64,000 bases of DNA, from NCBI GenBank assembly GCA_002269645.1, contig NIVC01000176.1:682001-746000 (forward strand). Reading direction: 5' to 3'. Shown here piece after piece: positions 25,281 through 63,913 of this stretch (positions within the stretch are counted from its first letter, which is position 1; the number at the start of each line of letters is the position of its first letter). The translations under genes were made by a program, and so were the position numbers. Origin of the DNA: Macrostomum lignano. Its lineage: Eukaryota. The notes below the pieces were generated by a model. That model ran no database searches. It was given only the letters and a program-made list of their open reading frames with translations, and was not told the DNA's origin.

Positions 25281-26582
25281 GGTAAAGTGGCTCGCTTGAT
25301 GAAGAGTAGATAAATAAAGGTAAATATCAACATGAAGTATTATTTGAGTTGCCGATGCATTTCGTCCATTTGCATTAGGACATCGTCAGGGTCTTTTTAT
25401 TGAGAAACAATTTGAACGAATATTCAGTATATATAGATAGTTGAGAGTAACAAGAGTAGTTGAATTGAGTTTTTAATTGATGGTTTAAAACTTGTACATA
25501 GTAATCAATTTTTGATACAGTATTGGTTGGGTAAAGTGCATATCAGTTTCAAGCCAGTCCGGTCATTGACAAATCAGCTAAAAAATTCTGAGTTGACGGC
25601 TAGCCCCACCCATCGCAAGTTGGTTATTTAACGTGGGCTGTTTGGTCTTAATGTACAGGGCTTCTAATAGGCAGAGCATGTGATCTCTATTACAAAAATC
25701 AATAGCCTTTATCATTTCGTGTGGTTCAGCCTCACAACAAGAATTGCAGGTTAGCAGGTGTTCGTTAATAGCAGAGTTTTTTAGCCAGTGCTCTCTGACC
25801 CTCGTGTATAAGTGTCGTTTAGTTTTTCCTATGTAGGAGATGCTCTGGTCCTCAGAGCAAACAAATTTATACACGACACCAGCCGCGAGAGGACGTGGAA
25901 CACTGGATTTCAACTTGCAGACAAACTTAGCAATCTTTTCGGTGCGAAACACAACACGGATTTGAGTGTTTAAGTCTTTACGGAGCAGCTTTTCTAACTT
26001 CTTTTTAAACTCTATAGACTTTGTTCTATAGACTTTGTTCTATCATCTCCTACATAGGAAAAACTAAACGACACTTATACACGAGGGTCAGAGAGCACTG
26101 GCTAAAAAACTCTGCTATTAACGAACACCTGCTAACCTGCAATTCTTGTTGTGAGGCTGAACCACACGAAATGATAAAGGCTATTGATTTTTGTAATAGA
26201 GATCACATGCTCTGCCTATTAGAAGCCCTGTACATTAAGACCAAACAGCCCACGTTAAATAACCAACTTGCGATGGGTGGGGCTAGCCGTCAACTCAGAA
26301 TTTTTTAGCTGATTTGTCAATGACCGGACTGGCTTGAAACTGATATGCACTTTACCCAACCAATACTGTATCAAAAATTGATTACTATGTACAAGTTTTA
26401 AACCATCAATTAAAAACTCAATTCAACTACTCTTGTTACTCTCAACTATCTATATATACTGAATATTCATTCAAATTGTTTCTCAATAAAAAGACCCTGA
26501 CGATGTCCTAATTCAAATGGACGAAATGCATCGGCAACTCAAATAATACTTCATGTTGATATTTACCTTTATTTATCTACTC
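25281..26582. mobile_element. Penelope-like element 3' fragments (GIY-YIG endonuclease plus tail) as an inverted pair: 539-bp arms 25304-25842 and 26044-26582
   Basis: ORFs 25578-25952(-) and 26021-26308(+) encode VVYKF.C...SYIGKTKRHLYTRVREH...SAINEH...LEALYIKTKQPTLN (PLE GIY-YIG). The arms are reverse complements, with at least 2 mismatches seen. tcaggtcatta flanks both sides (apparent 9-11-bp TSD). No RT domain is present. Confidence 0.85.
26497..26532 (+). ncRNA. Minimal hammerhead-ribozyme-like motif in the PLE tail (mirror copy 25354-25389, - strand)
   Basis: CTGACGA-T-GTCC-loop-GGAC-GAAA-TGCA-TC. PLE tails are known to carry minimal hammerheads. Stem I pairing is weak (about 2 bp). Confidence 0.5.
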
Positions 26583-42155: not shown

Positions 42156-45100
42156 ATGTCGAACGGCAGCCTTCAGCAGCAAGCCGACAACGACTCTGAG
42201 TACGACTCGCCTGCTCAGACAGTCGACGAGCGGGACTCGAACCCGGACCTGTCGACAAAAGGCGATGGCGACGGCGTCGAGCGACGTCCAGGCGGCACAG
42301 TTCGTCGGCGTATTCGACAGCTGTACCAGTCGTTTCGTCGACGCGGTTCTGCGACGTTGGGTACGGGAGCTGACAAACGGCAGCATGAGGTTTGGGCTTG
42401 TTGAATAATGATCATCATTTTTTTACTGTTCACTGTTTGACTGTCACTCCTTGTCTGTAACACAATCTGTCACTCTTCACTGTCACTCTCTGCACTCATC
42501 TGTCACTCTTCACTGTCACTCTCTGCACTCATCTGTCACTCTTCACTGTCACTCTCTGTACTCATCTGTCACTCTTCACTGTCACTCTTACCCATCTGTC
42601 ACTCCTTACTGCCACTCTCTTACCACATGTGTCACTCCTCAGTGTCACTCTCTGAACTCATCTGTCACTCTTCACTGTCAATCTCTGAACTCATCTGTCA
42701 CTCTTCACTGTCACTCTCTGAACTATCTGTCACTCTTCACTGTCACTCTCTTACTTCATGTGTCACTCTTCACTGTCACTCTCTGAACTCATCTGTCACT
42801 CTTCACTGTCACTCTCTGAACTCATCTGTCACTCTTCACTGTCACTCTCTGAACTCATCTGTCACTCTTCACTGTCACTCTCTTACCCCATCTGTCACTC
42901 TTCACTGTCACTCTTCACTGTCACTCTCTGAACTCATCTGTTTGATTTTCTAATCGATGCTTAGTGCTGAAGGACTATTAATCAATGACATATTGATTGC
43001 CTTTCTCAATGACAATTGTGTAATAGTACATATAGCTAAACACTGGTTCAAGGACTACTAAATTAGACTTCAACCATGACCCCAGGTTTGATTTCTAAGT
43101 GCTTTCAGGCACAGCCAGCAGGCACAGAAAGTGCACATGCCTGACGATTAGAAAGTCAGTACACCCCGTGTGAGCGTGTGTGAGTGTGACGTCACACAAC
43201 CAGCGAGAGGCATTACTGCACATTCCGCAGACTCCCCTGAGCAGGCACACAAGCGTGCGGATACGTATGCAGTCATACGCACTGGCACGCACTCACACAG
43301 GAGTGTACAGCGGCCCTGACTTTATTTAACGATAGGCATGTACACTTCACTGTGCCTCGGGGCTTGGCCCTCAATGGTGTTGATTGCACGAGCAGAGCCA
43401 AGCCTGGCCGCTGACGCATCAGAGGGCTGCGCTAGACCACTAGGCTACGACGGCTCCCCCTTCATCATTTCCATGCTCCAGCTTCCTGCACAGCATCAGC
43501 AGCTGTCTGCGGAGGCGGCGGCCGCTGCGGCGGTGGCAGCTGCCGCGGCAGCAGCGGCTGCACCCAGTCCTTCGACCACAACCCGGCAACAACAGCAGCA
43601 GCAGCAGCAGCGAGGAGGAACCGGAAGCGGAACTGCCACCGGAAGTCGACTTGTAGCCGGCGGAGCGCACCAGTTTGCCTTCGCCAGCCGGCCAACTACG
43701 AATGCCAGCACCTGCGTCAGCTTGAACAACAGCGAGCGGCAGCAGCAGCAACAGTCGAATGTCAACAATGATTTCAGCAGGGGTATGGAATCCGTGCAGC
43801 CAATCATATCTTCAGCTGGGGCTACGGCTGGCGATGCAAACAAAGATGAGGATTTGTACACCGTGCTGACGGTTGATGCTGAGGAACTGAGAAACTGTGA
43901 GTCCAGTTATTGTGCTATCCTGCATAGTCAGAGCTTGTGGAGTTTCGAGCTTGGGAAGTTTCGAGCTTGGGAAGTTTCGAGCTTGGGAAGCTTCAAGCTT
44001 GGGAAGTTTCGAGCTTGGGGAGTTTCGAGCTTGGGAAGTTTCGGTCTTGGGAAGCTTCGGTCTTGGGGAGTTTCGAGCTTGGGGAGTTTCGAGCTTGGGG
44101 AGTTTCGAGCTTGGGAAGTTTCGGTCTTGGGGAGTTTCGAGCTTGGGGAGTTTCGAGCTTGGGGAGTTTCGAGCTTGGGGAGTTTTGAGCTTGGGAAGTT
44201 TCGAGCTTGTGAAAGCGACCCCTACTGTTAGATTACAATCTTTATAGATGTATTGCAGCCTCAGGGTCTTTTGGTAGCTTGGCACCTGCCTCTGTTAGCT
44301 ATTCTAATATTTTTAATTGGCACGAATGAAAATCTTAATTTAGTTTTTATTGCATTATTTAATGAATGGCATCACCTGAATGTTGGAAATCAAAAGAAAA
44401 AGACGTGACCTTTCCTCAGATGCTGTAGCCTTTCTATTTTAGCTAGTTCCTAATCCAACCAATGGATTTTAACTATTAAAAAAATTCAGAATTTTCTTGC
44501 AAAACACGAACAGTAGTAGGAAAGTGGTACCCTCCACCGCCATCGCACCGGATTGGCCGGGGCACCCGGCCAATCAGGCGAGAGGGCCCCCCCAAAGAGG
44601 CCCACCCCCGACCCCAGACCCACCACCGCCGCACCCACCCCCGACCCAACGCCGCCACGCACCCACCCCCGACCCAAACCGGGCCCCCCAAACCGGGCCC
44701 CCTCCTATCCTGCACCCCATCACAAACCAAGGCCCCTCCTGTCCTGCACCCCATCTCATACCAAGGCCCCCTCGTGTCCTACACCCCGTACATCCCATAC
44801 CAAGGCCTCCTTCTATCCTGCACCCCTTCCCAAACCAAGGCCCCTCCTGTCCTGCACCCCATCTCATAACCAAGGCCCCCTCGTGTCTTACACCCCGTAC
44901 ATCCCATACCAAGGCCTGCTCCTATCCTGCACCCCATCCCAAACCAAGGCTCTGCCTGTCCTGTACCCCATCCCATACCAAGGCCCCCTCCTGTCCTGCA
45001 CCCCCGTGCATCCCATAGCAAGGCCCCTTCCTGTCTAGCATCCCATCCCAAACCAAGGCTCCCTCTTATCCTGCACCCCATCCCATATAACACGGTCCTT

Positions 45101-48100
45101 CTATCCTGCACCCCATACCAAGGCCCCCTCCTATCGTGCACCCCATCCCATATAACACGGTCCTTCTATCCAGTACCCTATCCAAAACCAATGCCCCCTC
45201 CTAATTTCTAAACCCCAATCTTATTCCCTGTCTCACCTACCGCTTTTAAGGCTCTAGCCAAGGCAAAACCCGCATTCAATGCTTTGGCTCTACTCTTTTC
45301 TTGCTGTGGCGGGTACAGCGGGAGGTCGTTAGACCTAGACCGCTACTTCTTGGTGGCCAGAGGGCCGCAAGAAGGTCCCGCCACCTCCTGTTGTGTGGGG
45401 TTGGATTCGGGGTTCGGATTGGTTATTGCTATGGAGCGGGAGCTGGTGTTACTTACCAACTCCAGTCATATATAATCTCGCGCACAGCCGGAAGGAAAGC
45501 TCACAGTTTTTGACAGTGAACAAAATGGAGTTCAAGACATTATCGAACAGATTTCGAATCGGCGTCAGGTCGCACTCGAAGTGCATCAGCTTCAGAAAGT
45601 GGTACAAATTTGCCGAAGAGTATCGACCAGGTCTGCCTGGCATGGAGCTCACCGTCCACCAGTTTTGCCACTTGGGCAGCCTGAAGGAACGACTGGAAGA
45701 GTTTGCAAGAAAGTGTATCGACGCGCAATGCCTTCTGGGCGGCAACAGGCAAGTGGTTGTGCAAAATGGCGTAATCACACTCTGGCGCCTTCCAACTGTA
45801 CTCGGACCGCCGGTGCACCTAAGGCATGCCTTACCGCTTCCTACTACACTTTGGCGCGAAGTCGGGGCTCAAAAGCAATGGGTCCTAGACAAAATTGACA
45901 AGCGAGAGCCTCCGGTCGAGCCGCCGATCGGCGATTCATGGTGGATGGGATACCACCCTACGGAATCTGAAGAGTGTGCAGCATGGGCAGCAAAGCTTAC
46001 ATTTGACCAACTGATGCAAGTACCTGACAGGCAGTCGGCAGATTGGGACGACCACTGGGGGGGGGGCCTTCCAAGCAGTTCAGGCTGAATTTAGAAAGAG
46101 ATTTACATTCGAAACTCTGGAAGAGCCACCAACAGCTGGGAAGAACCAACAGCCTTCATTCCACCAGCCACCAATGAAGCGACGCGCAATGCATGAAGCG
46201 ACAACTGGTCATTTCGTCAATTAACTTTTTTTTTAATATAGTTTTGAACCATAGTACTGATCATGCACTGTTGTATATATTGCTTTGTCAATACTGGCCA
46301 TAATATTGCCCCATCATGCTTTGATTCCTGGCGATAATACTGTTTTGTAAATACACGCGACGGGCCTTAATACTGCCCTTCCATTCTTCATAAACTTTTT
46401 TTGTGCTAATACGAGCTTTTAACATGTAATTTTATGCTTTGCAATCCATGGACCTGCCAATAAAATAAAAAAAACGTTTCATTTTCGTAAGCATTGTTGC
46501 ACAAACATAGTCGCATTCGCGTTTATTTTTTCTTATATTTTGTACACAAAAAATACAGAAGTAAAGTTACAGCAAAAATATTATTATTATTACTCGGTGC
46601 ATAGGCAGATCTCACTACTACTGTTATGCCGTAGAGGAGCTCAGTCAGAGTCCAGCAAAGTAGGTTCGGAATCCTTCGGATGCTTGATCTGGTAGCAAAA
46701 TGCGGGAGAGGGCATCAGCTGCAGTCTGAGCCTCAACCACGCTGCGAGCACCAGCTATTATACAGCGATATGAATGAAACAAAATCAACTTTACAGAGGC
46801 AGTAAACTCGAGCACAAGTCCGTTAAACATTTCCGGCTCATAGGTGCCCCGATGCGGCCATTTAGACTTGACTTCCCCCAACCGGAGTGGATGCCGACCC
46901 GCGGGAAAGGCCGTCACAGAGGTAATAGTCTTGATGCGAATCTGGGGCAGACTGGTCAATCGCAAGAAGTCCGCACACAGCTTCACAATCTTCTCCGTCT
47001 CTGCGAGAGCTTCCTCCAGGCTTTTGGCTCCACAGACAGACACTTGTCCGGTCGGATACACCAGCGCGGTTACTCGATGCTGCCCGCTCTTCATCACCAC
47101 TGCCAGTGTTCGAGGATGAACCAGGCGATGGCGGATTGTGTGATACTGAGGCAGATGAAGAGTCAGGAAATTCGCTAGTTGTGGCAGACCCACCCGGGTC
47201 GCCAGGTCGGCTCCTGTCACGATGTTTGTTACGCGAATTGTTGCGACCATCTTTAGACAATCGAGAGAAACGCCAGTGCCTGCTGCAGATCGCTACTTTT
47301 ATAGACCCGTAGCCGCGAGGCCGCAGCCAATCAGCGTACAGCGCCACTTTGGCCAGGGCGCAGGGCAACACGTACTTTGAGGCACTCGGAAAGGCTAGGT
47401 GTGCGAGGTCGTAGACAGGCTGCAGCAGCAGACGCGACAGGAACTGGCACTTGACATCCCCCTTGCTAAATATCGGGCCTTGCAAGTGAGAGATATCGCT
47501 CCAGAGACAAGAGTAGGGTCGGAACCCACTCCTGTCCCAGTCTAGACCGTGCCGCTTATTGGTGAGCCAGTAGCAGGTTCGTCGCTGTCCTCTATCAAAG
47601 AGCTCAAAGCTGTGCGGCGGCTGGTAGTAATAGTAATGAGCCGTCGTTTGACCGCATGCAAACTCAACCCATGCAATTTCCTTAATCACAAAGTCCTCTG
47701 TTTTGTAGAGGTGCGGAAATCCTTCAAAATCAATGACAATCATCTTGGCCACTTGATCCACTTGCCGTATCCTTTCTGAGACTGAGTCTTCTTATAGCCT
47801 TGCAGTCGAGGTTTTTTAGGACTGGACTTTTTTTCCCGAGGCTTTTCCAGCAATTTTGTAGTGTTCAGACCAACTGCAGACAGAGGTACATGATTTTCTT
47901 GAAGACTCGTAACAAACTCATTAATCCCATTCGGTGGCTGAAGGTACTTAGAGTACGTATCTTTAACTATGAAATGCAACAGGTCCACGATATTTGAGTT
48001 GTACAACGGTTTACCATTGACAGAAACTTCATACGTATCATCTATGCTAATCGACTTGCACTTTACGGTTATGAAGCTAATCAATGCCTGCAGACGATGA

Positions 48101-51100
48101 TGCCATTTCTGATTCACCGTCAGATATAAAACCTCCTTCCACTGCGGTTCTTTGTGAATTACTGGAGGCTGTTCTTGGGTCGCACTTGCCTGCAACTGCT
48201 GCACGCAACGCTCGTCCCTAATCTTGCGCAACTGTTTTTCCGCCTCTAGCTCGGGTTCACAGACTGTCTCCATACCCCTCTGATTCACAAGTGCCTCATA
48301 CTGCAACCGGGGTACCAGTATCATTTCCTTGTACATGTCTTTTTATACAGGTGAAAATCAGAGGAAGACAACGAAGGATATGCGGGTGTGAGAGATTGCG
48401 CCGAGCCTCTTTCACACTTTTGCTTTGTGCAACAAGCCGGAGAGTATTTCGATATCGCCTGAGTCTCCGCTTCAAGCTATCTTCACAGCCAACTTTTCCT
48501 GCTAGTAAGTTGATAATACACTCGACCAAAAAGCAAATGGTGCTTTTATTTGCATAGGTAAGTATGCAGCGACGCAAGGATATAGTGCCCTCACAAAAGA
48601 CAGTTATTAGTGCAATGTGTTTATCCATGTTTAACTCAGTGCAGAGACTGAGCCATTCTTATAGATAAACTCGCTGCGGGGCCTCATCGGGGAGAAAATT
48701 GGCTCTCAGGCGCAGTTCATGGGGTGAAGCGGGGTGAAAATCAAGCAGCAGATAGCGCTGATCTCCATCTCGCACCAATCGATCCATCAGTTCTACTAGC
48801 AGAGTGCGCCGTTTGGGAAAGCATTGCTGACTTAAAGCTTGGACCGCAGAGGCGTCTCTGGGGTTGTTGAACAACACAATGTAGGTGCAATTTATGCTAA
48901 TTGTGCGCCACTCTCTGCCTTTGAAAAATAGATTTTGCGTGATGAGAATGACAAAGCAGGGCTTGTGGTGGGCCTCACGGGTGAACAGATGTCGTAGCTC
49001 TCGACTTGCAGCTGCTTCATCCAGTAAATCGTCAATCACAATCAGGTCATGGGGCTGCAGATCCAAATTCGATAATCCTTCACATACTTGCACTCCTAGC
49101 CGCCGCAGAGTCGCGTGGAGTTCCGGCTGCGGGCATCCGTGATACCAAATCATCCGCTTGGGAGGTTGGTCGAACAGAAGCAGTCGTTGGGACAGCAGCC
49201 GCAAACAGAATGTTGATTTTCCCGCTCGAGAAGGGCCCGAAACCATCATGCAGCCTCCCATCCGCAGTCTGGAATCAAACACCTTGCAACTGATTTTTGA
49301 GTCTGAGTATGATTGCATCGTTTTGAGCCACAGCTGCCGGGTGCAAAACCTTGATGAACAAGGCATTATATGACATTCTCTTATGCAGTCGATGGATCAA
49401 GTAAAAAATGCAATACCAGCCGCATAGAGTTGACGAACTGGGCTGAACAGGGACCGTATTCCATTGTAGCACCATCCGCGTCGGTTTAGTTTTCTTTAAC
49501 CAGCTCTTCATATTTTTACTCAAGCCTCCCAAAGAGTTGAAAATTTCACAATGCACTTTACTGGTTACTACTCCAGCAATCCAGTGACCGCACTCATCAT
49601 TCCATGGCTCATACAAAATGAAGCAGCAGGGTCGGCAGGTTGAATCGAAAAATGGTGTCACTGTTCCAACTGTAAAATTTCCGCAATAGGCATCCCGCAC
49701 AGATGTGGGGCAGCGAGAAATGAACGCTTCCAACTCTTCGGAATTCATGCTCTGCGATAATCCAGCAGCACATCTCTCTCTTTAGTGATTTCCATGCATG
49801 AATCATACACGCACAAGCAGATGAGTGTGACTGGCTGTGCGAGAGCGTTGGAAAAGCGAATATCCAGTCGTAGTTGACCCTGCCTATGACCAAACCAGCT
49901 GCCTACTTCATCGCCACTTGGACTAAGGTCAAACGCAAGCAGATAGGCACTATTTCGAAATTCATCAAAGCTTTTGCAATATTTTCCACTGAGACTGCGG
50001 GCAAACTGCAAAAATTCGGATGAGTGCTGCTGCTGTGGTTCTATGGGCTGCCCAGTAATTGGCTCTCCATTGACAAACAGGCTTAAACTATTCAATCCAA
50101 ATGCTTGGAACCAAAACGGGTTGTGGTGCAGAGATCCATTGAAAGCAGTCTGGCTGACCATTCCAAGGAGCACAAATTTTGGCAGCTGACCATGCGTGAT
50201 TGAATCGAGACTCTTGTTTCTTGTCCCAACAGAAAATGTGAATGTCTGAAGCTCTCTTCTATCAAAGTGGTAGAGAGCATTACGCTGTGAGAGCCCCTGT
50301 TCATGTGCGAGAGCCACTGTTGGGTTTACTCGGAGACGCCTCAAAAGCAGAATAGCATTGTCGACTTCAACACGGTATTGAACTCCATTATTGGGTACCA
50401 TCAACGAAAAAGCGCTGCAGTGCCGGGTCAATTTGACCTGCAGGCTGATTTGGTTTAGCAGATACTGCCGGATTGAGAAAATGTCTGAAAACAACGGGCC
50501 GGCATATTGCACAACAGCAGAAGCCTCATGCAATCTCGCACGATTTGTGAATCCATGATTTTGCTCCCCAATGGTGTCACTCTCTCCAGCGGTGTCTGAT
50601 AATAACCTGCGGCCGCCAGTTCTTGAAGCTGGTTGGCATTGCTGCTGGTCAGCACTTGAAGCATTGCTCGATATGGGTAGAGCTGGTCCCCACCACTCAC
50701 AACCCGCTGGTTGAGTTTTACAGTGACATCACGAAACAGGCTGGCAAGCGGGAGATTCGATAGTCCGACATGGGCATCATCTTCATTAGTCAGCTCTGCA
50801 TTGTTTATCACACGAGTTATCCGGCAAGTGACTTGCAGCACTGTGGCGTGCAGATCGGTGTAGTCCTCAGAGGAGGCGTGGCAGTCGAATTCAATCGGTG
50901 CATCAGGAGTCGTGAGACTGCCGATGGGATGAAAGTCCATGAAGTGAGACCTATCCACTCCAATTTCATGCGTCATTGGCTCAAACAGATTGAGCCGTGG
51001 ATTTGTCCGATACATTATGAGAGTGAATCGAGCACTCGGTTGACTGTTTTTAACGGTATCTTGCGCTTTTTTGAGGGCACTGGCTTGCTCTTCTTTGGTT

Positions 51101-54100
51101 TGATTTTTGGCGTTTTCTTATGTTTTTTCTGCGATGGAGGTGGTATGCGGGAAAGGAGAACTGCATTTTCATGAGTCTCAGGGGGCAGTCGAGATAGCAG
51201 CGATGTGGGATATCCGTGCCCATGAGGAAGTTTGAAGCAACTGCCTCGATAAAACTCGGTCACTTGTCGAATGTCCATGACTCACGCAGCTCAAAAGTCA
51301 AGACTGTGGGTCCAAAGAGTAATCGGATAGATTCGATACAGTTGATCGGTCGTAGCCGTATTTGCATGTGTGTTAAGCGGTGGTTTGCTGCTATTGGGAA
51401 GAACAGCTTATTCTTATAGATGAGTTCCGACCGGTGATCCTGCAAAAGACCACCAATATTCAAAGTCTGCAGTGCTGGAGTAAACTGATTTCCAATACGA
51501 TTGAGTGCGATCAGATTAGCGCGGGCTAATCTGATCGCACTCAACAAGCAGCAAATCCGTATTCCAGGCCGGGTTCATGCCAGGTCGTTCAAAGCATCCT
51601 GCCTGCTCGCTATAGGTTGTCTGCGCAGCACCAAAGATTTTCCCCAGCTGGCTGTTTTCTGGAAAGATAAATCTCTCACAGATCCCAGCCATTTGATAGC
51701 ATACATGATGGCTAACTGAATCAAGGGTAAATTTAATTAGATGCACATTTATAGGTGTTTCGCCAATTCCAGACTCATCAAAATCTTTTACAATCAGTAA
51801 AGCATTTACTGCATCAATCAGCTCATTCAAGTCATTGTAGCGCCCAGCTGGAATTTCAGCACATTGCATTGAACCCTCAAGCTGATAAAATAGCGACAAC
51901 GGATGAGGGATGGTGTAGATGCAGTTGATAAAACTGATTCCAAGCAGACCCAACTCATAATCCAAAGCAGAATCCAGCAGCACAGGATGCAGCAGCTCAG
52001 CAGTAAAGTTGGCCGGGTCATCATCGGGGCCGGACATTACCTGAAATCTTTGCCTTTTCATATTTTTCTTAAGTCTTTTTCGTCAATCCAACTGGGTTTT
52101 TCTGAATCGCGCCACTGAACCAAATACCGAATCTTTCCACTCTTCAGCTTCTTAATGTTGAGAACCTTGTCGATGATCCACAGCTTCTTGTTTCCTGTCA
52201 CTTGCTGCATTTCCGGCTCGTAAAACTTGCCTTCCAACTCTTCACCTCGGGCATCGATCAGAGTGTACATGTATGGATAATGCTTGGGGTGGAGGGACTT
52301 GACTTCAAATACTTCCTCACTCCATCCCCTTGTGTATCCCTTGGTGAATGGGTTGGCCAGATTGCGAAGAGAGATTCGCACCATCATTCCTGCCTTGAAC
52401 TTTGGTCTGGAGACCTTTTCACGAGTCTCAGGAAGCTTCCCATCGTAAAGCCGCTGCCAAATTTCCATCTCGTTTGACTTGTCGACATCAACTGGTCGGC
52501 TTTGAATACTCCGATGAATACTCTGGTTGTATGCCTTTGCTAAGGGTTGAAGCACATCGGTCCAGGTTAATGTTGACTTGTGACGGAAGTACCGCCACAT
52601 TCGGGATTTCAGTGTGCGGTTCCATCTCTCAATGACTGCGCATTTCTGGTCACTACTTGATGTGAATGCATGAATTTTGTGGTTTCCGCAGAGGGCTCGG
52701 AACTGGGTGTTACAAAACTCTTTTCCACGGTCGGTCCGAACTGCTCGTGGGCATCGAGGGTGAGCTCAATTTAGGATCGCTTCGAATCCGGCTGCAACCT
52801 CCTCGGCTGTCTTGCGGCGCACCGGCTGAGCCCAGGCAAACTTGCTGAGCACATCAATGCAGCATAAAATATATCGTACGCCGCCATTGTACTTGGCAAA
52901 CGGCAGCATTTCAACAAGGTCCAGTTCCCACTGGTCATCCATGCCCCGCACCACAATCGGTGCTCTCCGAAAGTTTTTGCGTTTATCTCTATGCAGTGTG
53001 TAGACATCTTGGTCTTGGAGCCACGTTTTTACCTTTAATTGTAAAAACTGGAAATTGCTAGCTAGTGGATAAAACTAAAAACCTAAGCTGGAATTTTCTA
53101 AAAAATCATTGGTTTAGAAGTATATCGTATATAAATACCTGCCCTACACTAAACTTGGGTCCGTGCTGTTTGTGCAACTCTCGTTTTAATGCTTGATAGC
53201 CGCCATACCTGCCCGGTCTACTGCAGTCAAAATAAATACCTGGCAGAAGGTTGGAAATTGCCTTTTTCTTTTTCATTTTTCCAAATTTCTAGTACCTATC
53301 ATTTTCTTATGCCAAACACCTGGCTTGAAAAAAAAACTACCCACCCCCACCAGTTTCTGCGGATTTAGCGTTTCTAGCCTCTGTTGTGCACGAAAAATCA
53401 TGCATGTTTGCACAAAATACATACATTTCAATGGGGATTTTTACTCGGACCTGTGCACGAAAAACCTCGACACTTTGCATACTTTCTAACACTGTGCACG
53501 AAAACTTGCATACTTGTGCACAAAATACATGTATTTCAATAGGGATTTTTACGCAAACCTGTGCATGAAAATTGACGGATGTTGTCAAAAAAGTCACGTC
53601 ATATTGCGCACTTTTAATCACTGTGCACGAAAACTTACATACTTGTGGATAAAATACATACATTTCAATGGGGATTTTACCCCAGAGCTGTGCACAAAAA
53701 ATGACTAATTATGGCAAAAATATTCTTGTGAAAGAGCATTTTTCTCTCCTGCAGTGTACCAAATATCATAGAGTAAAGCTTGTATTTATTATTTTTCAAA
53801 ATATAGTATGTTCGTATTAAATTTACATGCATATAGTTAAAAATTAAAGATACGTGAAAAGAATGTTATTGTGAGAAAAAGAGCTTGCTAGTGTCCAGAT
53901 CGCACTGGCCGACACTGGCTTGTCGTCTTGAGAATGTGCACCAGAACTAAATCCCCGTTGAAAATCATCTGGTCGCGGAATGCTGACTTGGCCACAGGCT
54001 TTGAATAAACCAGCCGGTAGTCCACTTGCTTGCGAACATTCTCTAGGGTCTACAGGGAGTTGTTTAGCAGCTTGTTGTCTTTCTTGAACTCATTCTTGGC

Positions 54101-57100
54101 CTTTTGCACGACGCTCCATGCGGTAGATAACAACTTGCGGTTGACACGTCAACACACCGAGTGGCCCTGATTACCCAGCCACTGCCATTGCGTAGGTACT
54201 TCTCTATCCGGTTGAGGATAGTCTGCATGTCGTCAGAGAAGTAGTACTCCTCCTCACTCTGGAGAAGAGAGTGGACCTTGGCAGCAAACCAGGCAGTGTT
54301 CTCGGCGGCGCAGCTGCCATTAATGATGCGCTGCATCAGGACCCCGAGGCGCAGCTGAACTTTGATGGCGGTTCCTGGCTCACGTTGATGCTGGGTGATC
54401 AAGTCAATGAAAGCTTGACGAGTGTTTTCCAAAACATTCATCGGGTCGCCGCATGCACTGGCCCGGTAAAGTTGGGACCTGCCATTAAACGCCTCCTTAA
54501 TCAGTTGAAAATGAATCGTTGGGGAGTCATCTGACTCAAACAGTGCTGGTATCGCAGGACATACCGCATAGTGCTCCTCAATGCCCCCGATTACTGATGA
54601 CTCGCAAAAGTCGCAAGTTATTTGCATTTTCGTTGTATTTTTAATTCAATCTAAAATAAATAAAAAATCTATGGGGCCGAGGTGCTTTATTTATAAAGGG
54701 TACTGGGGCCCTTCTCCCGCAGGGTCCAAACCAAATCGTTCACCAGGGACCTATCGACCAATAGAATCCCTTCTCCACATTACTCGGAAATCACTTCAAA
54801 TGCTTGCTCGACCAATAGAATCCCTTCCCCTCTCTACTAGGAAATTCCAAGCAATCGGGCCCTCTACCGGATCACATTGAAACTCTGTGCTGCGTGTCAC
54901 CACACGCGGTAGGAGGACACTCGCCAATGGACACTCATTCACATCTCGATACCCACCCTTGGACACTCAACCAGACACTCGGCTGCCCGACCCCTCATCT
55001 GGCCTGCTCGACCGGCCTGCCCGACCCCACTCCTGGGCTTGCCCGACCCATTTCTCCTGCCTCCGGTATGGGATGGGGTGCTGGACAGGAAGGGGCCTTA
55101 GTATGGGGTGCAGGATAGAAGGACCGTGTTATATGGGATGGGGTGCAGGACAGGAGGGGGCCCGGTTTGGGCTCGGGGGTGGGTGCGTGGGTTTGGGGTC
55201 GGAGGTAGGTGCGGCAGTGGTGGGTTTGGGGTCGGGGTGGGCGTCTTTGGGGGCCCGGTTTGGGTCGGGGGTGGGTGCGTGGCGGTGGTGGGTTTGGGGT
55301 CGGGGGTGGGTGCGTGGCGGCGTTGGGGTCGGGGGTGGGTGCGTGGCGGTGGTGGGTCTGGGGTCGGGGTGGGCGTCTTTTGGGGGCCCTCTCCCCTCAT
55401 TGGCCGGGTGCCCCGGCCAATCCGGTGCGATGGCGGTGGAGGGTACCACTTTCCTACTACTACGAACTTTTCAAAAAACCCTAATCTGTAGCATTCGAGC
55501 GTATATTTCTAAATGATAAAAATTTAAGAGCTATTTATAGATTTAAAAATCGACTTTTAATTATAATGTACATTGCATACGGGTGGGTGTTCTCAACCAA
55601 TGTACATTTGAGTGTGTACATTGTCCTGCCACGCGGGGTCCGAGTGTGTGTGACCTTGGAAAACCCCCCGGCCCCGGGACGTTTAATCTAAGACCAGTTT
55701 GAATCTGATGTGATAAGTAAGGATCAAGATACACGTGGTTTCCATTCCAAATCGCAGATCTAGCTATAGAAGTCCATGGGATCAGGATACACGTGGTTTC
55801 CATTCAAATCGCAGATCCAGAAACCCACGCATTGGATGGTCTTTCCATTCCAGATTGTCAGGCCTAGAATTTCATGCACGTTATTAAAAAATCCAACAAA
55901 CACAAGTAACGCATAGGCTCAGGGGCTCCGCATTGCAGCCGAAATCTGATCCGGTTTTTCTACCTGCCTGCAAGGCTGCGCTTCTCCATAATGTTTGGTT
56001 TGGAACTAAATATCCATTTTTACATGCCGTATTGATTCTGTCTGGAATTTGATCTGTTTGCCAAACTTGCTCTGCAGACACTTTTTTGGTAGCATTTTTC
56101 TGCGATTGAATGTGGTAGCTTCTGATTGTAACTTTCTGGTGGATCTCTTTATAGAGAATTAAATTCCGATATGTAGTGTAATAGCTATTTTAGAGCAGAA
56201 ATTTCATAGTATTTTCCATTCAAGTAAATTCTTCTAAGACCCTTCAATTTAATAATTGAGAGAAAACTCCCGACTTGAAATTCGACAAAAACTTTTAGTC
56301 TATGGTCGAAACCTCTGCCAATCAAGCCACCATTTCGATCAGCAGAGTATAGAAACATATAAGTGGCCTAGTGGTTAGAGCGTCGGACTCACGACTTGAA
56401 GGTCGGTGGTTCGATTCCCGATCCCACTGGAACAATTAGTGTCCTTGAGGCAAGACACCATGACTCTGCATTGCTTCAGTTCACCCAGCTGTAAAATGGG
56501 TGCCAGCATTAGCTGGGGTAATTCCCCATAGTGGCGACTCCCCAACAGCCGTACTCAGACTTCAGATGCGCCGCGCAATAGCTGCGTCTGAGCTGTCGGT
56601 TGAACATCTGGTCCAATTGGGGCAGGGTGCAATCAATTAGTGGTATTAATTAATAATTTTTATTCCTATCTATGAATAAATCAAAGCTCCCAGGGTCATC
56701 TCGACCAAAAATTGCTATATTTAATTCCCCCCTCCTTCACCCCTCCCGCCACGATCCCCAGTCTACTCGGACGTCTACGTTGTCGCCGAATGCGAAGGCG
56801 TCCAGCTGAAGACCAAGCGGACCAACAAGCTGGAGGACATCCAGACTTCGTTCATTTTCTATCGCAAGCATAGCACCACGAAGCCGATCGAGTTCAAGAT
56901 GTACGCCAGCCATCAGAGCCTCCGACGGCGCGTGCTGATTGGCAAGCTCAGCCTCACGCTGCAGCCTGGCGAGCCGTTCGACGGGATGAGCGTCAGGCGG
57001 AGCATCCGAGAGCGACCGGAGCTGCGTCGGGACGGCGGGTCCGGGCTGCTGTTCAACTTCCTGTCCGGGACGCTGCACACACAGCATCTTTCCGGAGTGT

Positions 57101-58740: not shown

Positions 58741-60207
58741 ATGGCGTCATCCGCCTCTTTAACCCCCGCTGAAGCCGGGGCCCCGGCAACTCCGGCCGGT
58801 GACTCTGGCACCAGCGCCGCCCCACCGGGGGCAGATGGGCTTGCCGCCGGCTCGGCTGGTGACATGCCCGCACGCGCAACCGGGCCCTCCGCTGAAGCCC
58901 GACGCACCCGCAACCAACGCCGCAACGAGCGGCGACGGCGACTACGGGGTACTGCGGGCCGGCCACCGGCGGAAGGGGAACCTAGGGAGGGCGAGGCTGC
59001 TGTTGGGCCGAAAGGAACCACAGCAACCCCTGCCCCCCAGGATACAACCCCCGCTGGTGAGCCACCCAGTATACCTGCTACAAGCGCGGCCGGGCCTTCG
59101 GGAACCGCCGCCACCAACTACGCCTCAAAGGTCAAGCTCCAACCGGCGGTCATCGTCTTCGGGGAAGAGCAGGACCTCACGGCCGACGAGCTCGACAGTG
59201 CCTGGCGCACCATCGATGCTGCGCTCATCGACCAGCTCCTGGCGGGCCGCCCTGTGAGCGTGGTCAAGTCTGCCAAGACCGACGGCTGCATCTTCATCTG
59301 GTGCAGCTCGGAGGAGAGCAGCCGCAATCTACGCGAGCTTCTGCCAAAGCTGAACTGGCCCAAGAAGCTCGGCAAGCTCGTCTTCGCCAGCGAGGGCGAA
59401 CGACAGAAGACCCAGCGCTTTCGCGTCTGGATCCCGGCCGGCAGTGCCATTAAGTCCGGAGATCAGCTTAGGCAAATATTGCTAAAGCTGCACCCCGACC
59501 TTAAGGTCAACGGGCTCCTACACCACGCCACTTCCCGCAAGGAGAAGGGGGCTACGGTGATCCTAGGGCTCTCTGATGACTGGGCTAAGCGCTTGCCGCC
59601 TAAGTCCACAATTCATATTGGTCTGACTCAGCTGACCATCCTCCGTTGCGAGGAGCGGAAAGCTGATGAAGCCAAGAATGCCAAAGCTTCCGAAACCGGA
59701 ACTGGGGCCCAGGCTCCTCCGGCAAAGAAGCCGAGGCAAACGGCCGATCCTATGCCCGGTAAGGCAGTTCGCGCTGCTGAAACCGGAAATCGCAATCGCA
59801 GACCCGCCAGGAGCACCCGGAGGTCCGGCCTGATCCAGCGCGCGCTGGACCAGGCCAAGAACCTTCGTGCGCATCGTGAGCGGGCCCGCGCTTCTCGCGC
59901 TCCACCCCAACAGCCAGAAGGCCAGACTCTAAGCGGGGAGGCTCCGACCGACTGGTTCGAGTCTGTGACTCACCAGGAGGCTGGCGCCACCCGCATCGAC
60001 CTGACCGACGAGGCAGAGGGGACGGGCAGTGACAGCACCGAAGCACGCAGGAGAGGCGACGGTAACGTCCACGCTGGGCTCACGTCCGCGGAGGACTCCA
60101 CAGCCACCCTAACTGCTGAGGACGCTGAAACTCCCATGGAGGTCTGCGGGTCACCCACCACTGAAAAGGAGGAGGATGACCTGCTCAACGATTCCCCAAC
60201 TGCGTGA
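58741..60207 (+). CDS. ORF1 (gag-like) of the non-LTR retrotransposon, 488 aa
   Basis: Long open frame directly preceding ORF2; no zinc knuckle recognised. Confidence 0.75.
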   Translation: MASSASLTPAEAGAPATPAGDSGTSAAPPGADGLAAGSAGDMPARATGPSAEARRTRNQRRNERRRRLRGTAGRPPAEGEPREGEAAVGPKGTTATPAPQDTTPAGEPPSIPATSAAGPSGTAATNYASKVKLQPAVIVFGEEQDLTADELDSAWRTIDAALIDQLLAGRPVSVVKSAKTDGCIFIWCSSEESSRNLRELLPKLNWPKKLGKLVFASEGERQKTQRFRVWIPAGSAIKSGDQLRQILLKLHPDLKVNGLLHHATSRKEKGATVILGLSDDWAKRLPPKSTIHIGLTQLTILRCEERKADEAKNAKASETGTGAQAPPAKKPRQTADPMPGKAVRAAETGNRNRRPARSTRRSGLIQRALDQAKNLRAHRERARASRAPPQQPEGQTLSGEAPTDWFESVTHQEAGATRIDLTDEAEGTGSDSTEARRRGDGNVHAGLTSAEDSTATLTAEDAETPMEVCGSPTTEKEEDDLLNDSPTA

Positions 60208-60209
60208 TA

Positions 60210-63200
60210 ATGATCAGCAACCAGGGAATCCATTGCCTGCAGATTAATCTGCAGCACTGCGTCGCAGCCTCGGTCAACCTTATGCGTTACGCCGAGCTCG
60301 ACAAGCCGGGGCTCATCCTCGTCCAGGAACCCTGGACTCTCAGAGGTAAGCCTCAAAACGCCCCTGCTGGCTACAATTGTTTTTATACTTACCCTCGCGA
60401 GGCCAACCAGCCTCCCAGAGCTTGCATCTTTGCGAGCAAAACGCTCAGTGCGTGGCTCAGATCGGACCTGTCCAACAGGGACATCTGCGTCATCCAATCC
60501 GAGGACCTTCTTCCTGGGAAGACCACCCTCATTGCCTCGGTTTACCTACCAGGCGATGCTGCGGTCGTCCCCAGAGCCCTCGCTACGCTGGTAGAGCTCT
60601 GCTCTGCCAAAAACTACGAGCTCATGGTTGCCGGCGACATCAACGCCCACCACACTCACTGGGGCAGCACTGGCATTAATCAGAGAGGCGAAGACCTCCT
60701 AGCCTACGTTGCCTCTACGACCCTCGAGTTCTGCAACTCTGGGTCCACCCCTACCTTTGACAACGGACGGTGGTCGGAGGTGATCGACGCTACGCTCGCA
60801 ACGCCCAGACTCTACCAGAGTATTGGGGCGTGGCGGGTGCTTCCAGTGTCCTCACTATCGGATCACAAGTTCATCTCCTTCAACCTAATGGCCGCGCGTA
60901 GCGCAACTCGTGTTATGTGGAGACGGAACGCCAGAAATACTGATTGGGAAACCTTCGGGCTCGCCCTGAAGGAATTCCATCGGTCTCCTGGCCAACCATT
61001 CACGATCACGTCGTGCCGAGAGGCGGATGAGTGCGCGACTGTTTTGACAGAGACGCTAACCGCCGCCTTTGAGGCGTCCTGCCCTTTAAAAGCCTATAAA
61101 GGGAAAAAATCGGCGCCGTGGTGGAATCCCGAGCTCGGCAACCTCCGTCGCAGGGCTAAGAGACTCCACCGCAGAGCAACTAAAACTAAGAGCCCTGCAG
61201 ACCAAACCGCCTATCATGAAGCAATTCATGAGTTTAAAAGGCAGGTTAGGAATGCAAAGGCTCAAAAATGGCGACAATACTGTGAGGAGCTAGAGGGCTC
61301 ACGCCCCACCTCCAGAGTTGTGAAAGCGCTCACGCTGGACAAAATGTCTAAGCTCTCCTCGGTCAAACGCACCGACGGTACGTCCACGGACAACCCAGGG
61401 GAAACGCTTGATGTAATGCTCACTGCGTTTTTCCCTAACGAGCCAGCTAACCAGACCACTCCGGATCACTCGGAGGGAGGTCACGCGCTGGCTGCATCTA
61501 TCATCACGGAGGACCGCATTGTGAGAGCGGCAAATTCCTTCAAGCCTTTCAAAGCCCCAGGACCCGACGGCATTGTACCGGCCCTTCTAAGAGAGGCGGT
61601 TAAATGCCCAGGCTTCCTGCGCAAACTTTGCAGCCTTCTTCGGGCATGCATCACGCTTGGTTATGTCCCGCAGGCATGGACCGAGGCAAAGGTGATCTTT
61701 ATCCCTAAGCCAGGCCGCCCGGACTACCATTCTATCAAATCCTTCAGACCGATCAGCTTGACCTCCTCCCTGGTCAAGCTGATGGAGAGACTGGTGCTTT
61801 GGCGCCTTCTCTCTGTTGAGCTGAAGAACAAACCTCTCAGCGAGAACCAGCACGCTTTTCGGGCGGGTCGCTCCACTGAAAGCGCGCTGCACGTCCTGGT
61901 CGATAAACTCGAGAAGGCCGTGCTTGGTAGTGGCTTTGCTCTGGGGATCTTCCTGGACATCATTGGCGCCTTCGATAACGTCCTCTTTGAGGCGTTCCGA
62001 AGAGCTCTTTGTGAGAGGCTAACGCACTCACATCTCACCAGATGGATCATGTACATGATCAGCCATCGCACGGCCACCGCCAGTCTGCTGGGCTACCAGA
62101 GGACGGTCCCCGTCTGCAAAGGTAGCCCGCAAGGTGGGGTGCTGTCTCCAGTTCTCTGGAATATGGTCATCGATGAGCTCCTCCGGGATGTTCGGCCTGA
62201 CCCCATTCTGAAAGTTGGATATGCGGACGATGTCACCGCGGTGGCATCTGGTCCGTCCCCTGATACCCTCAGGGACCTTCTTCAGAACTTCATCTACGCT
62301 GCTGAGCAATGGGCGGACCGCTGTGGTTTAAGGCTCTCTGAGACTAAGACCGCAGCGATCATGTTCACCAGCAGGACCAAGTGGCAGATTCGGCCGCTCA
62401 CGCTTTACGGAAGGGAAATCCCCTTCTGCAAGCAGACTAAATGTCTGGGTATTACCCTGGACCACAGGCTGAACTGGTCTCCCCACGTTCAAACAAAAGC
62501 CAAAAAGGCCTTCGCAGTCCTCGCGCAATTGCGCAGGGCCGTCGGCACCACCTGGGGGCTCACCCCCAAGCGCCTCTGGTGGATCTACACTGCAATGGTT
62601 AGGCCCGCTATCTCGTATGGCGGCCTGATCTGGGCTAGCGCCCTGCAGATAAAGACCTGTCTAGAGGCTCTCAGGAGAGCGCAAGGGCGCGCTTGTCGCA
62701 CGATCATGAGCGCCCCTCCGTCTGCTCCTTACGATGGCCTCAACGCCTTCCTCAACATTCCTCCGCTGGACATCTTTGTCCGCAGGGAAGCGGCTAAGAC
62801 TGCCCGCCGTCTAGCTGACGCTGGCATTCGAATCCAGCCCCATAGGGCCATGGCTAAGCGCAAGCTTCTGCCCCACGCTGACCTCTGCCTCAAGGACTTG
62901 AGAGACAGCGGCGGGCTCCACGTCCTATCTGACGGCGAACCCCGCACTCTCAACCTCTTTCAGCGCTACAAGGTCACCATCCCCTCTAGGGATGCTGCCA
63001 ATGACCACTGGAATTTCCAGGAGGTCCATTGCTACACGGACGGATCCATCAAAGACGGTCGCGCCGGCTTTGGGGTCTGCATCATCATCAACGGCCGCGT
63101 AATTGCCACGCATGCCCAGCACACTGGTAGACTCTCCACAGTCTTCCAGAACGAAGTCCTTGCCATCAGCTCTTGCGCTGCAGAGCTAAACGCCAAGGTT

Positions 63201-63913
63201 ACGAGAGGAAAGACTATTGTCATCCACTCCGACAGCCAAGCGGCCTTACAGGCCCTTTGCCACACCACAACGAACTCCCGGACAGTCGCCGACTGCGCCC
63301 GGCAGCTCAACCTCCTGGCCAGAAGCAATACTGTCAGGCTGAAGTGGATCCCAGGGCACGCAGGGTTTCCGGGGAACGAGCTGGCAGACACCCTCGCCAA
63401 GAGGGGCGGCTCTGGCTCTTTTTTCGGCCCTGCCCCCTGGTCCCTATGCCCTTGACAGTCATCAATCGTCAGATCGACGACTGGGCTGACTCCCTCCACA
63501 GGGACAGATGGGCGGGCACCCAAAACTGCCGGCAATCTCGTGCCGCGGTTCCTTGCCCGTCTCACAGGCTCAGAAACATCCTTCTGAACCAGAATCGGAA
63601 GGATATTCGAGCCCTTGTCATGACCCTTACCGGCCATGGCTACCTCGCCAGGCACTGCTTCCTCCGAGGCGACCTCGAGAGCGAAATTTGCCCCTTTTGC
63701 GAGTGCGACAATGAAGATGCTCAGCACTTTGTCTGTCACTGCCCTTTCTTTAACAGAGACCGGCTACGCTACCTCGGGCCGAACCCGTCCATTGACGAGG
63801 TTTGCCAGCCCGACAGCATCCCACGGCTCATCCAGTTCCTTCGGGCGACTAGACGAGCCAGTTTCTTCCCAACGGAAGATCACGCTGCAGGACGGACCGG
63901 CGGACCACCCTGA
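60210..63913 (+). CDS. ORF2 polyprotein: APE endonuclease, reverse transcriptase, RNase H, CCHC; single 1-nt frameshift in the C-run 63433-63437
   Basis: APE: QINLQH, VQEPW, SVYLP, GDINAHH..WGS, SDH. RT: FRPISLTS, QGGVLSP, YADD. RNase H: YTDGS, E, SDSQAAL, WIPGHAG..GNE.AD. After the shift: LTGHG..CPFC..EDAQHFVCHC. Confidence 0.92.

What the first reader, a model, noticed from the sequence alone, without database searches (positions are those of the whole stretch)
46645..47250. A Maverick/Polinton that encodes its own intact, divergent TATA-binding protein
Seen: a stop-free, intronless 201-aa ORF with both TBP repeats, lying inside the TIR/TSD-bounded element. By eye against canonical TBP (yeast numbering), N69 (NIV), the TFIIB-contacting YEPE stirrup, F190 and F207 are kept. 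F99 is replaced by L/T, F116 by Y, N159 by T, P191 by N, T124 by C and T215 by A. Established: TBP homologs occur in giant viruses (Nucleocytoviricota), and the standard Maverick gene set (PolB, integrase, ATPase, protease, capsids) has no TBP; I do not recall TBP being described as Maverick cargo. Inference: an element-encoded initiation factor with altered DNA specificity that could redirect Pol II to element promoters or act as a TFIIB decoy. It stays intact while PolB, integrase, MCP and penton are all broken, which is compatible with selection or host co-option but could be chance.
Basis: partly seen in the sequence, partly recalled or inferred. Interest (0 to 1): 0.92.

Follow-up and report, generated by a model that had tools for sequence, protein, structure and literature searches.

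The report
Polinton TBP with matching promoter box
A virus-like Polinton transposon of a flatworm carries, as a stable gene of its lineage, its own altered TATA-binding protein, and most of its particle-building genes sit behind a TATA-like box with an unusual start, which suggests the element brings its own key for switching those genes on.

Summary
The ORF is real: two PF00352 repeats, a TBP fold, inside a 10,950-bp element with TIRs and a 6-bp target duplication. It is not host co-option or a one-off. About 160 TBP-like places occur in this genome (probably Macrostomum lignano) in two Polinton families only 35% identical, at the same gene position, under purifying selection (median dN/dS 0.23). 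That this copy looks intact is unremarkable, and its tail is frame-changed. A TAAGA(A) box lies 30-150 nt before 7 of 11 genes here and 6 of 8 in family B, beyond codon chance. Its first two positions are relaxed, which fits the loss of Pro191. A second Polinton lineage shows no TBP (0 of 57 places) and keeps TATAAGC. Best reading (0.55): a viral TBP that reads element promoters, like herpesvirus ORF24 but keeping the TFIIB stirrup. Binding, expression and timing are untested, and family B's TBP gene itself has the box. TBP cargo is not new: Starrett 2021 lists it in a figure legend, and this scan noted Polinton TBPs on two other genomes, one with a box. I found no paper describing the TBP-box pair.

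The parts
46645..47250 (-). Element-encoded TBP, 201 aa, no N-terminal tail; last 9 residues frame-changed relative to sister copies
47296..47303 (-). Canonical TATAAAAG 53 nt before the TBP ATG; in the same column as the CTTAAGAA box of family B (by-eye alignment of the exonuclease codons)
44506..44511 (+). Left target-site duplication ACGAAC
44512..45200 (.). Left TIR (AGTAGTAG end; core 44512-44680; internal tandem repeats; inner edge approximate)
45469..45476 (+). Canonical TATATAAT 56 nt before the PC4-like gene
45525..46088 (+). PC4-like gene (PF02229 weak here, E 0.01; the family B homologue passes the cut-off, E 2e-8)
46862..47743 (-). Exonuclease-like ORF (DEDD-type label recalled, no Pfam hit); its frame stays open 128 codons into TBP
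47789..47796 (-). Box TATAAGAA, TAAGA at -51 from the exonuclease-like ATG
47740..48336 (-). Conserved 198-aa ORF of unknown function, no box
48296..48628 (-). Conserved 110-aa ORF of unknown function
48656..48663 (-). Box TATAAGAA, -33 from the 110-aa ORF (overlaps the ATPase stop codon)
48659..49318 (-). Packaging ATPase, unbroken (start by homology to family B; first ATG at 49366)
49378..49385 (-). Box CATAAGAG, -65 from the ATPase; different reading frame from the family B box
49275..49748 (-). Cysteine protease (PF02902 weak, E 0.009), no box
49745..51015 (-). Putative major capsid protein, in two frames (broken near 50.4-50.7 kb); identity inferred from size, position and strong conservation, not confirmed by a tool
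51115..51122 (-). Box CATAAGAA, -105 from the putative MCP
51015..51278 (-). Small basic, putative core protein (label inferred)
51411..51418 (-). Box TATAAGAA, -138 from the core ORF
51281..52061 (-). Putative minor capsid/penton, broken near 51.5 kb; identity inferred
52149..52156 (-). Box ATTAAGAA, -93 from the putative penton (a second TAAGAA at -10)
52058..53276 (-). rve integrase with chromodomain, broken in several places
53304..53311 (-). Box CATAAGAA, -33 from the integrase ATG, non-coding
53850..54627 (-). pPolB remnant: N-terminal part and a C-terminal piece, most of the gene absent (lower edge approximate)
54688..54695 (-). Canonical TATAAATA, -68 from PolB
55065..55461 (.). Right TIR (core 55291-55461)
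55462..55467 (+). Right target-site duplication ACGAAC

Best explanation
The ORF is a viral TBP of a Polinton lineage. Host TBP/TFIID transcribes the genes with ordinary TATA boxes (PolB, PC4 and, in family A, TBP). The element's TBP then binds the NNTAAGAA box in front of the capsid, core, ATPase, integrase and neighbouring genes, a box that host TBP should bind poorly because it mostly lacks T-A at its start. Through its kept YEPE stirrup it recruits host TFIIB and Pol II. Shown here: fold, lineage-wide synteny, purifying selection, a conserved but altered DNA face, the box and its enrichment, and a TBP-less lineage with an unrelaxed box. Inferred: binding of TBP to the box, TFIIB recruitment, that the box is a promoter, and any early-to-late timing.
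For: Same position (exonuclease-like ORF then TBP, downstream of the ATPase) in 18 of 19 family B loci, whose TBP is 33-36% identical to the window's. TBP-like match within 8 kb of 26 of 28 family A and 89 of 98 family B ATPase places. Median dN/dS 0.23 over 63 pairs, like protease 0.22 and exonuclease 0.18. DNA-face columns invariant across 11 element TBPs: 12 of 32, against 18 of 141 other columns, p 0.002; shared non-host residues include Q68T, F116Y, T124C, Q158K, N159T, V203K; E186/E188, F190, F207 kept. TAAGA is the top 5-mer upstream of genes in family A (7 of 11) and in two family B loci (6 of 8 each). With protein sequences fixed and synonymous codons redrawn, P = 0.0014 in family A and 0.001-0.009 in three family B loci (TAAGAA: 0.0002-0.0004). 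The same five orthologues carry it in both families, and the ATPase box lies in different reading frames. Only 4 of 19 boxes begin TA; P191, which enforces T at position 1 (PMC1636458, PMC12529657, passages), is N, S or T in all 11 element TBPs. A second lineage has no TBP-like match within 25 kb at 0 of 57 ATPase places, and 11 of its 13 gene-proximal TAAGC boxes begin TA, mostly 43-54 nt before the ATG (read).
Against: A TAAG-core box also exists in the lineage without detectable TBP, so the core does not need the element's TBP; that contrast is one lineage against one, only 5.9 kb of each of four elements was read, and the genome searches score only 150 candidates. In family B the TBP gene itself has the box in 16 of 16 loci, which does not fit a clean early-to-late switch. 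Protease and the 198-aa ORF lack the box in both families, and the integrase and exonuclease-like genes, which are not capsid genes, have it. Distances vary (33-147 nt), more than in lineage 2. Family-wise p of the unbiased k-mer scan is only 0.05-0.06 at the better word length and 0.09-0.32 at the other, and the -160..-20 window was chosen after seeing the data. The 10:0 strand bias is partly codon content (AAGAAA is 9:0). F99 is lost in family A, R196 is acidic there, and wild-type TBP already tolerates G at position 6 (PMC1636458). The register of the box on the TATA element is ambiguous by two bases.
Confidence: 0.55

Rival explanations
1. The TBP is a decoy or general booster: it titrates TFIIB, NC2, Mot1 or TAF1 away from host TBP, or supplies extra TBP activity. 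The TAAG box is an older Polinton promoter or start-site element read by host factors or another element protein.
For: The acidic stirrup E186-P187-E188 is invariant in all 11 element TBPs while F99 is lost and several DNA contacts are changed. The TAAG core is shared with the lineage in which no TBP was found. TAAG is also the baculovirus late start motif (recalled, no call).
Against: A pure decoy would not need a DNA face that is more conserved than the rest of the protein between families 35% identical. The box's first positions differ between lineages in the direction predicted by loss of P191. The family A canonical TATA and the family B box occupy the same column before TBP.
Confidence: 0.25
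2. The TBP binds the box but does not activate Pol II through TFIIB: it represses, recruits another polymerase system, or acts only with an element partner such as PC4 or one of the conserved unknown ORFs, as herpesvirus ORF24 does within a complex.
For: Family B's TBP gene carries the box, as an autoregulated gene would. The basic helix-2 residues are partly lost in family A (K133L, K145D). Both families carry a PC4-like gene. ORF24 needs ORF34 and Rpb1 to bind promoters (PMC12529657, passages).
Against: The TFIIB stirrup, which ORF24 lacks (PMC12529657), is invariant here. There is no extra domain to bind a polymerase (185-201 aa).
Confidence: 0.15
3. Neutral retrocopy of host TBP carried by chance, or a single copy co-opted by the host.
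For: Intronless, but so is the core of host TBP. The AU test does not reject placing the element TBPs with host TBP (p 0.10).
Against: 26% identity to host TBP, 162 distinct places, conserved synteny, dN/dS 0.13-0.49 in all 63 pairs, close relatives in other assemblies, and this copy has a frame-changed tail.
Confidence: 0.03

Closest known systems
Polintons / Mavericks / adintoviruses (Starrett et al. 2021, PMC8502044: passages, section 3.4 whole, one supplement searched; figure not visible)
   Same: TIRs with AG ends, 6-bp target duplication, pPolB, rve integrase, packaging ATPase, cysteine protease, putative capsids. The Fig. [quoted passage not shown]
   Different: There TBP is a legend label in a section on non-animal datasets, with no analysis in the passages read. 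Here it is a lineage-wide, selected gene of an animal Polinton with a candidate cognate box.
Beta/gamma-herpesvirus vTBP: KSHV ORF24 with the TATTWAA late box (PMC12529657, passages)
   Same: Viral TBP fold, polar substitutions at V122, T124 and V161, a TATA-variant box before structural genes, host Pol II assumed.
   Different: ORF24 is a large multi-domain protein that binds Rpb1 directly, lacks the TFIIB acidic residues, keeps all four phenylalanines and the proline, and works in a six-protein complex. This protein is a bare core that keeps the stirrup and has lost P191 and F99.
Cellular TBP and TRF2 (PF00352; host genes L041, L042)
   Same: Two-repeat saddle; N69, V71, T112, L114, F190, F207 and the YEPE stirrup.
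   Different: 26% identity to host TBP, 22% to TRF2; no N-terminal tail; lineage-specific DNA-face changes; separate long-branch clade.
TBPs of Nucleocytoviricota and mirusviruses
   Same: Virus-borne TBP fold; best BFVD match is the Heterosigma akashiwo virus TBP (E 6e-12, 17% identity).
   Different: Those viruses mostly encode their own RNA polymerase (recalled); no polymerase subunit was seen in the element stretches read. No close kinship in the trees, which held no named giant-virus TBP.

Membership tests
TBP family (PF00352) | Two TBP repeats above the curated cut-off | tested here: met
   65.1 bits vs 22.9, two stretches
TBP family (PF00352) | Saddle fold | tested here: met
   AF2 pLDDT 82.8; Foldseek TM 0.6-0.7 to TBPs
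Canonical eukaryotic TBP | Four intercalating Phe (F99, F116, F190, F207) and both central Asn (N69, N159) | tested here: not met
   F99 lost, F116Y, N159T
Canonical eukaryotic TBP | TFIIB stirrup E186/E188 | tested here: met
   invariant in 11 of 11 element TBPs
Canonical eukaryotic TBP | Binds and bends TATA DNA and supports initiation | not testable with these tools
   needs biochemistry
TRF2/TBPL1 | Groups with TRF2 | tested here: not met
   host TRF2 groups with P0015, apart from the element clade
Polinton/Maverick | Long TIRs with AG termini and 6-bp target duplication | tested here: met
Polinton/Maverick | Protein-primed PolB and rve integrase | tested here: met
   PF03175 E 7e-14 in family B, remnant in the window; PF00665 E 1e-5, below cut-off on pieces
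Polinton/Maverick | Packaging ATPase and cysteine protease | tested here: met
   P-loop ATPase and weak PF02902
Polinton/Maverick | Double jelly-roll major capsid and penton | tested here: inconclusive
   no Pfam, PHROG or PDB hit; single-sequence model failed, pLDDT 31
Herpesvirus vTBP (ORF24/UL87/BcRF1) | Rpb1-binding N-terminal domain and extended C-terminal domain | tested here: not met
   185-201 aa bare core
Herpesvirus vTBP (works like) | TATA-variant box before structural genes | tested here: met
   2 of the tested genes lack it in both families
Herpesvirus vTBP (works like) | Box-dependent late transcription needing the viral TBP | not testable with these tools
   no start sites, timing or binding data

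The most novel reading that the evidence does not exclude
Some animal Polintons run a one-gene private transcription system: a captured TBP whose 5'-half contacts were rewired, letting the ancestral host-readable TATAAGC box drift to NNTAAGAA. This is a minimal, TFIIB-compatible counterpart of the herpesvirus late complex, and, if the scan's unchecked notes on other genomes hold, it recurs with a different box in other lineages, giving a natural series of TBP-DNA specificity variants.
Probability: 0.45. Interest if true: 0.85.

Novelty: new variant of a known kind. Interest (0 to 1): 0.68.

Why it matters
How Polintons, which have no RNA polymerase, order their gene expression and turn on capsid genes is an open question, and animal Polinton particles have not been observed (PMC8097293, abstract in listing). 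A selected TBP plus a candidate box makes that question testable with one small protein and 8-bp oligonucleotides. Two lineages in one genome, one with TBP and a relaxed box and one without, give a built-in control. The protein is also a natural altered-specificity TBP that keeps the TFIIB surface.

Tried and rejected
Host co-option or special retention of this copy: rejected. Expression: no RNA holder listed on record; four runs guessed as RNA, all contigs, cover parts of the element including TBP at low depth and may contain DNA, so no evidence either way. Context of relatives in other species: viral-contig scans with A1 and P0139 found nothing; the scan with A2 gave one TBP in a tailed prokaryotic-type virus contig, unrelated; A3 could not be searched; the metagenome scan gave one false match antisense to a bacterial gene. 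So the neighbourhoods of P0002-P0005, P0010, P0038, P0165, P0166 and of the short tailless TBPs are unknown. Origin of the gene: unresolved, long branches, quick trees only. Capsid fold: failed. Protein Atlas: TBP clusters only for the TBP; nothing at 0.9 or above for the PC4-like protein. Orthology of the 110-aa ORF and penton with lineage 2: no significant pairwise match. TAAG as a splice site: considered and set aside because no G precedes the T and no pyrimidine tract lies upstream; not tested with reads. CCAAT as an early marker: 3 of 3 canonical-TATA genes against 2 of 7 box genes by eye, too weak. The rest of lineage-2 elements was not read, so absence of TBP there rests on coordinate-only searches. 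Complex prediction was not used: no host TFIIB was in hand and it cannot model DNA. A structural paper on TATA variants, id recalled, is not held.

Full report
OBSERVATION. The minus-strand ORF 46645-47250 encodes 201 residues without a stop. It matches PF00352 in two stretches (E 5.1e-18, 65.1 bits, cut-off 22.9) and 35 TBP sequences of the PDB among 39 listed. An AF2 model from a 12-sequence alignment is confident (pLDDT 82.8) and its Foldseek PDB matches are TBPs down to rank 44. It lies in a 10,950-bp element (44512-55461) with AGTAGTAG ends, TIRs and the target duplication ACGAAC. The element holds remnants of pPolB and rve integrase, an ATPase, a protease, putative capsid genes and a PC4-like gene. 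The capsid labels are inferred: no library named them and the fold failed. Its argument from intactness is not: six other short genes here are unbroken, and this copy's last 9 residues are frame-changed relative to 19 of 19 sister copies.

A LINEAGE GENE. A search of the window's genome (764 Mb; near-identical proteins are labelled Macrostomum lignano in UniRef and NCBI) gave 151 matches from 150 of 200 candidates scored. Three searches together list 162 distinct element-type places (counted); these are lower bounds. They form family A (like the window; 13 gap-free copies average 98.2% identity) and family B (33-36% protein identity). Of 20 stretches fetched, one was family A; 18 of the 19 family B stretches show the exonuclease-like ORF and ATPase upstream of TBP, and 16 also the putative MCP, in the window's order, with ATPase about 45% and MCP about 40% identical. 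A TBP-like match lies within 8 kb of 26 of 28 family A and 89 of 98 family B ATPase places. Among 12 family B copies (7 near-duplicate or broken loci of the 19 left out) dN/dS has median 0.23, range 0.13-0.49, over 63 pairs with dS above 0.05; protease 0.22, exonuclease 0.18, ATPase 0.09, MCP 0.07. Within family A pN/pS is 0.44 (23 against 19 variants), as expected of a mix of selected and post-insertion changes. Relatives at 60-63% (P0002, P0003) and family B-like ones (P0005, P0010, P0165, P0166) occur on short contigs of other assemblies; their context could not be read. Element TBPs form one long-branch clade (SH-aLRT 98 and 99; quick trees) on the eukaryote side, apart from host TBP (26% identity) and TRF2. 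The AU test does not reject joining them to host TBP (p 0.10), so the donor is open, but a recent neutral retrocopy is excluded.

THE DNA FACE. With my list of 32 DNA-facing positions (recalled, overlapping Table 1 of PMC12529657), 12 are invariant across 11 element TBPs against 18 of 141 other columns (p 0.002; the rows are related and strand positions are conserved for other reasons too). Kept: N69, V71, T112, L114, F190, F207 and the stirrup E186-P187-E188. Changed in common: Q68T, F116Y, V122S/T, T124C, Q158K, N159T, V161T/S, V203K, P191N/S/T. The surface is therefore under selection for something other than the host's specificity. [quoted passage not shown]

A CANDIDATE BOX. I first saw TAAGA upstream of genes, before consulting the scan's notes. 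In an unbiased scan of -160..-20 windows it is the top 5-mer in family A (7 of 11 genes; family-wise p 0.05) and in two family B loci (6 of 8 each; TAAGAA family-wise p 0.057). The window was chosen after seeing the data. Because many sites lie in lysine-rich ends of the upstream gene, I fixed the proteins and redrew synonymous codons: P = 0.0014 for family A and 0.0086, 0.0084, 0.001 for three family B loci, and 0.0002-0.0004 for TAAGAA (family B loci are not independent of each other). Core, MCP, ATPase, 110-aa ORF and exonuclease-like genes carry it in both families; protease and the 198-aa ORF in neither. The ATPase box is in different reading frames in the two families, and the integrase box is non-coding. 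PolB, PC4 and family A TBP have canonical TATA boxes at -68, -56 and -53; the one family B PC4 gene seen has CCAAT plus TATATAAG. Before TBP, family A's TATAAAAG and family B's CTTAAGAA fall in the same column of the exonuclease codons, which suggests the box is a TATA variant with positions 1-2 relaxed: 4 of 19 boxes begin TA. Against a simple switch, family B's TBP gene has the box in 16 of 16 loci.

A NATURAL CONTROL. The genome holds a second Polinton lineage (ATPase 34-39% to the window, different gene order). None of its 57 ATPase places has a TBP-like match within 25 kb, and an HMM found none in four 5.9-kb stretches. Its genes carry TATAAGC, mostly 43-54 nt before the ATG; 11 of 13 gene-proximal TAAGC sites begin TA. 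Wild-type TBP accommodates G at position 6 (PMC1636458), so host TBP could read that box. The contrast fits co-variation of TBP and box. It is one lineage against one, the elements were not read end to end, and it also shows that a TAAG-core box exists without this TBP, which feeds the decoy rival.

MECHANISM. Most likely (0.55) the protein is a viral TBP that binds NNTAAGAA and hands host TFIIB and Pol II to element promoters. Rivals: decoy or booster with a box read by others (0.25); box binder that represses or needs partners (0.15); neutral or co-opted copy (0.03). Expression data were uninformative.

WHAT IS KNOWN. Starrett et al. [quoted passage not shown] KSHV ORF24 with its TATTWAA box is the closest working analogy (PMC12529657, passages), but membership fails: no polymerase-binding domain, and the stirrup is kept. 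Term searches inside PMC11161782, PMC10748475 and 10.64898/2026.10.13.758929 found no TBP or TATA; PMC12220804, PMC11640650 and PMC10675990 mention TATA only in other contexts (passages; the last lists TBPs in putative mirusvirus-derived elements). Eight library searches (listings and abstract starts) showed no paper on a Polinton TBP with a cognate box; subscription journals and Repbase are not covered. This scan noted Polinton TBPs on two other genomes (e1-7879962, with a TATAAAC box never before TBP itself; e1-7352920). These are unchecked notes on other DNA; the first agrees with my reading for family A and differs from what family B shows.

VERDICT. Real, selected, element-borne TBP with a statistically supported candidate promoter box and a TBP-less control lineage; mechanism inferred. 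New variant of a known kind; interest 0.68.

Noticed in passing
window 46862-47250 and L021-L040: The exonuclease-like frame stays open for 128 codons (family A) and 106-110 codons (7 family B loci) over the first TBP repeat, in the same frame; P 0.03 and 0.002-0.009 against synonymous redraws. Possibly an overprinted extension under selection.
   Followed up: partly
L021-L040, TBP genes: Family B TBPs have median dS 0.39 in the first repeat and 2.0 in the second, with equal dN/dS near 0.15: recombination near the middle of the gene, or constraint from the overlapping frame.
   Followed up: partly
L045-L048: A second Polinton lineage with a tight TATAAGC box about 45-55 nt before genes, a pX-like domain (PF05829) in one ORF and a dUTPase in one family. 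The box itself was not found described in my searches.
   Followed up: partly
window 45525-46088; L032:8586-9113: Both TBP-bearing families also carry a PC4 coactivator-like gene behind a canonical TATA box; its position relative to PolB and TBP differs between the families.
   Followed up: partly
P0139, P0078, P0067, P0060, P0091, P0040, P0057, P0031, P0014: Short tailless divergent TBPs from unnamed assemblies; three share the N159T and V161T changes. Candidates for TBPs of other mobile elements; context not obtained.
   Followed up: partly
G000 C70, C713, C1301 and C350, C3090, C3513: Host TBP and TRF2-like genes each appear at three places with equal or nearly equal scores, and their cores are intronless.
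   Followed up: no
window 58741-63455: A LINE-type element with a 488-aa ORF1 and an unbroken 1081-aa endonuclease-RT-RNase H ORF.
   Followed up: no
window 25304-26582: A perfect 539-nt inverted repeat with a 201-nt spacer, flanked on both sides by the same 21-nt tandem array.
   Followed up: no
window 46528-46537 (-): An orphan TATAAGAA box just downstream of TBP, present in most sister copies, with no consistent ORF behind it.
   Followed up: partly
L044:9983-10531: An archaeal-type TBP gene in a 33.6-kb tailed-virus-like contig of IMG/VR, next to a restriction-modification-like gene.
   Followed up: no
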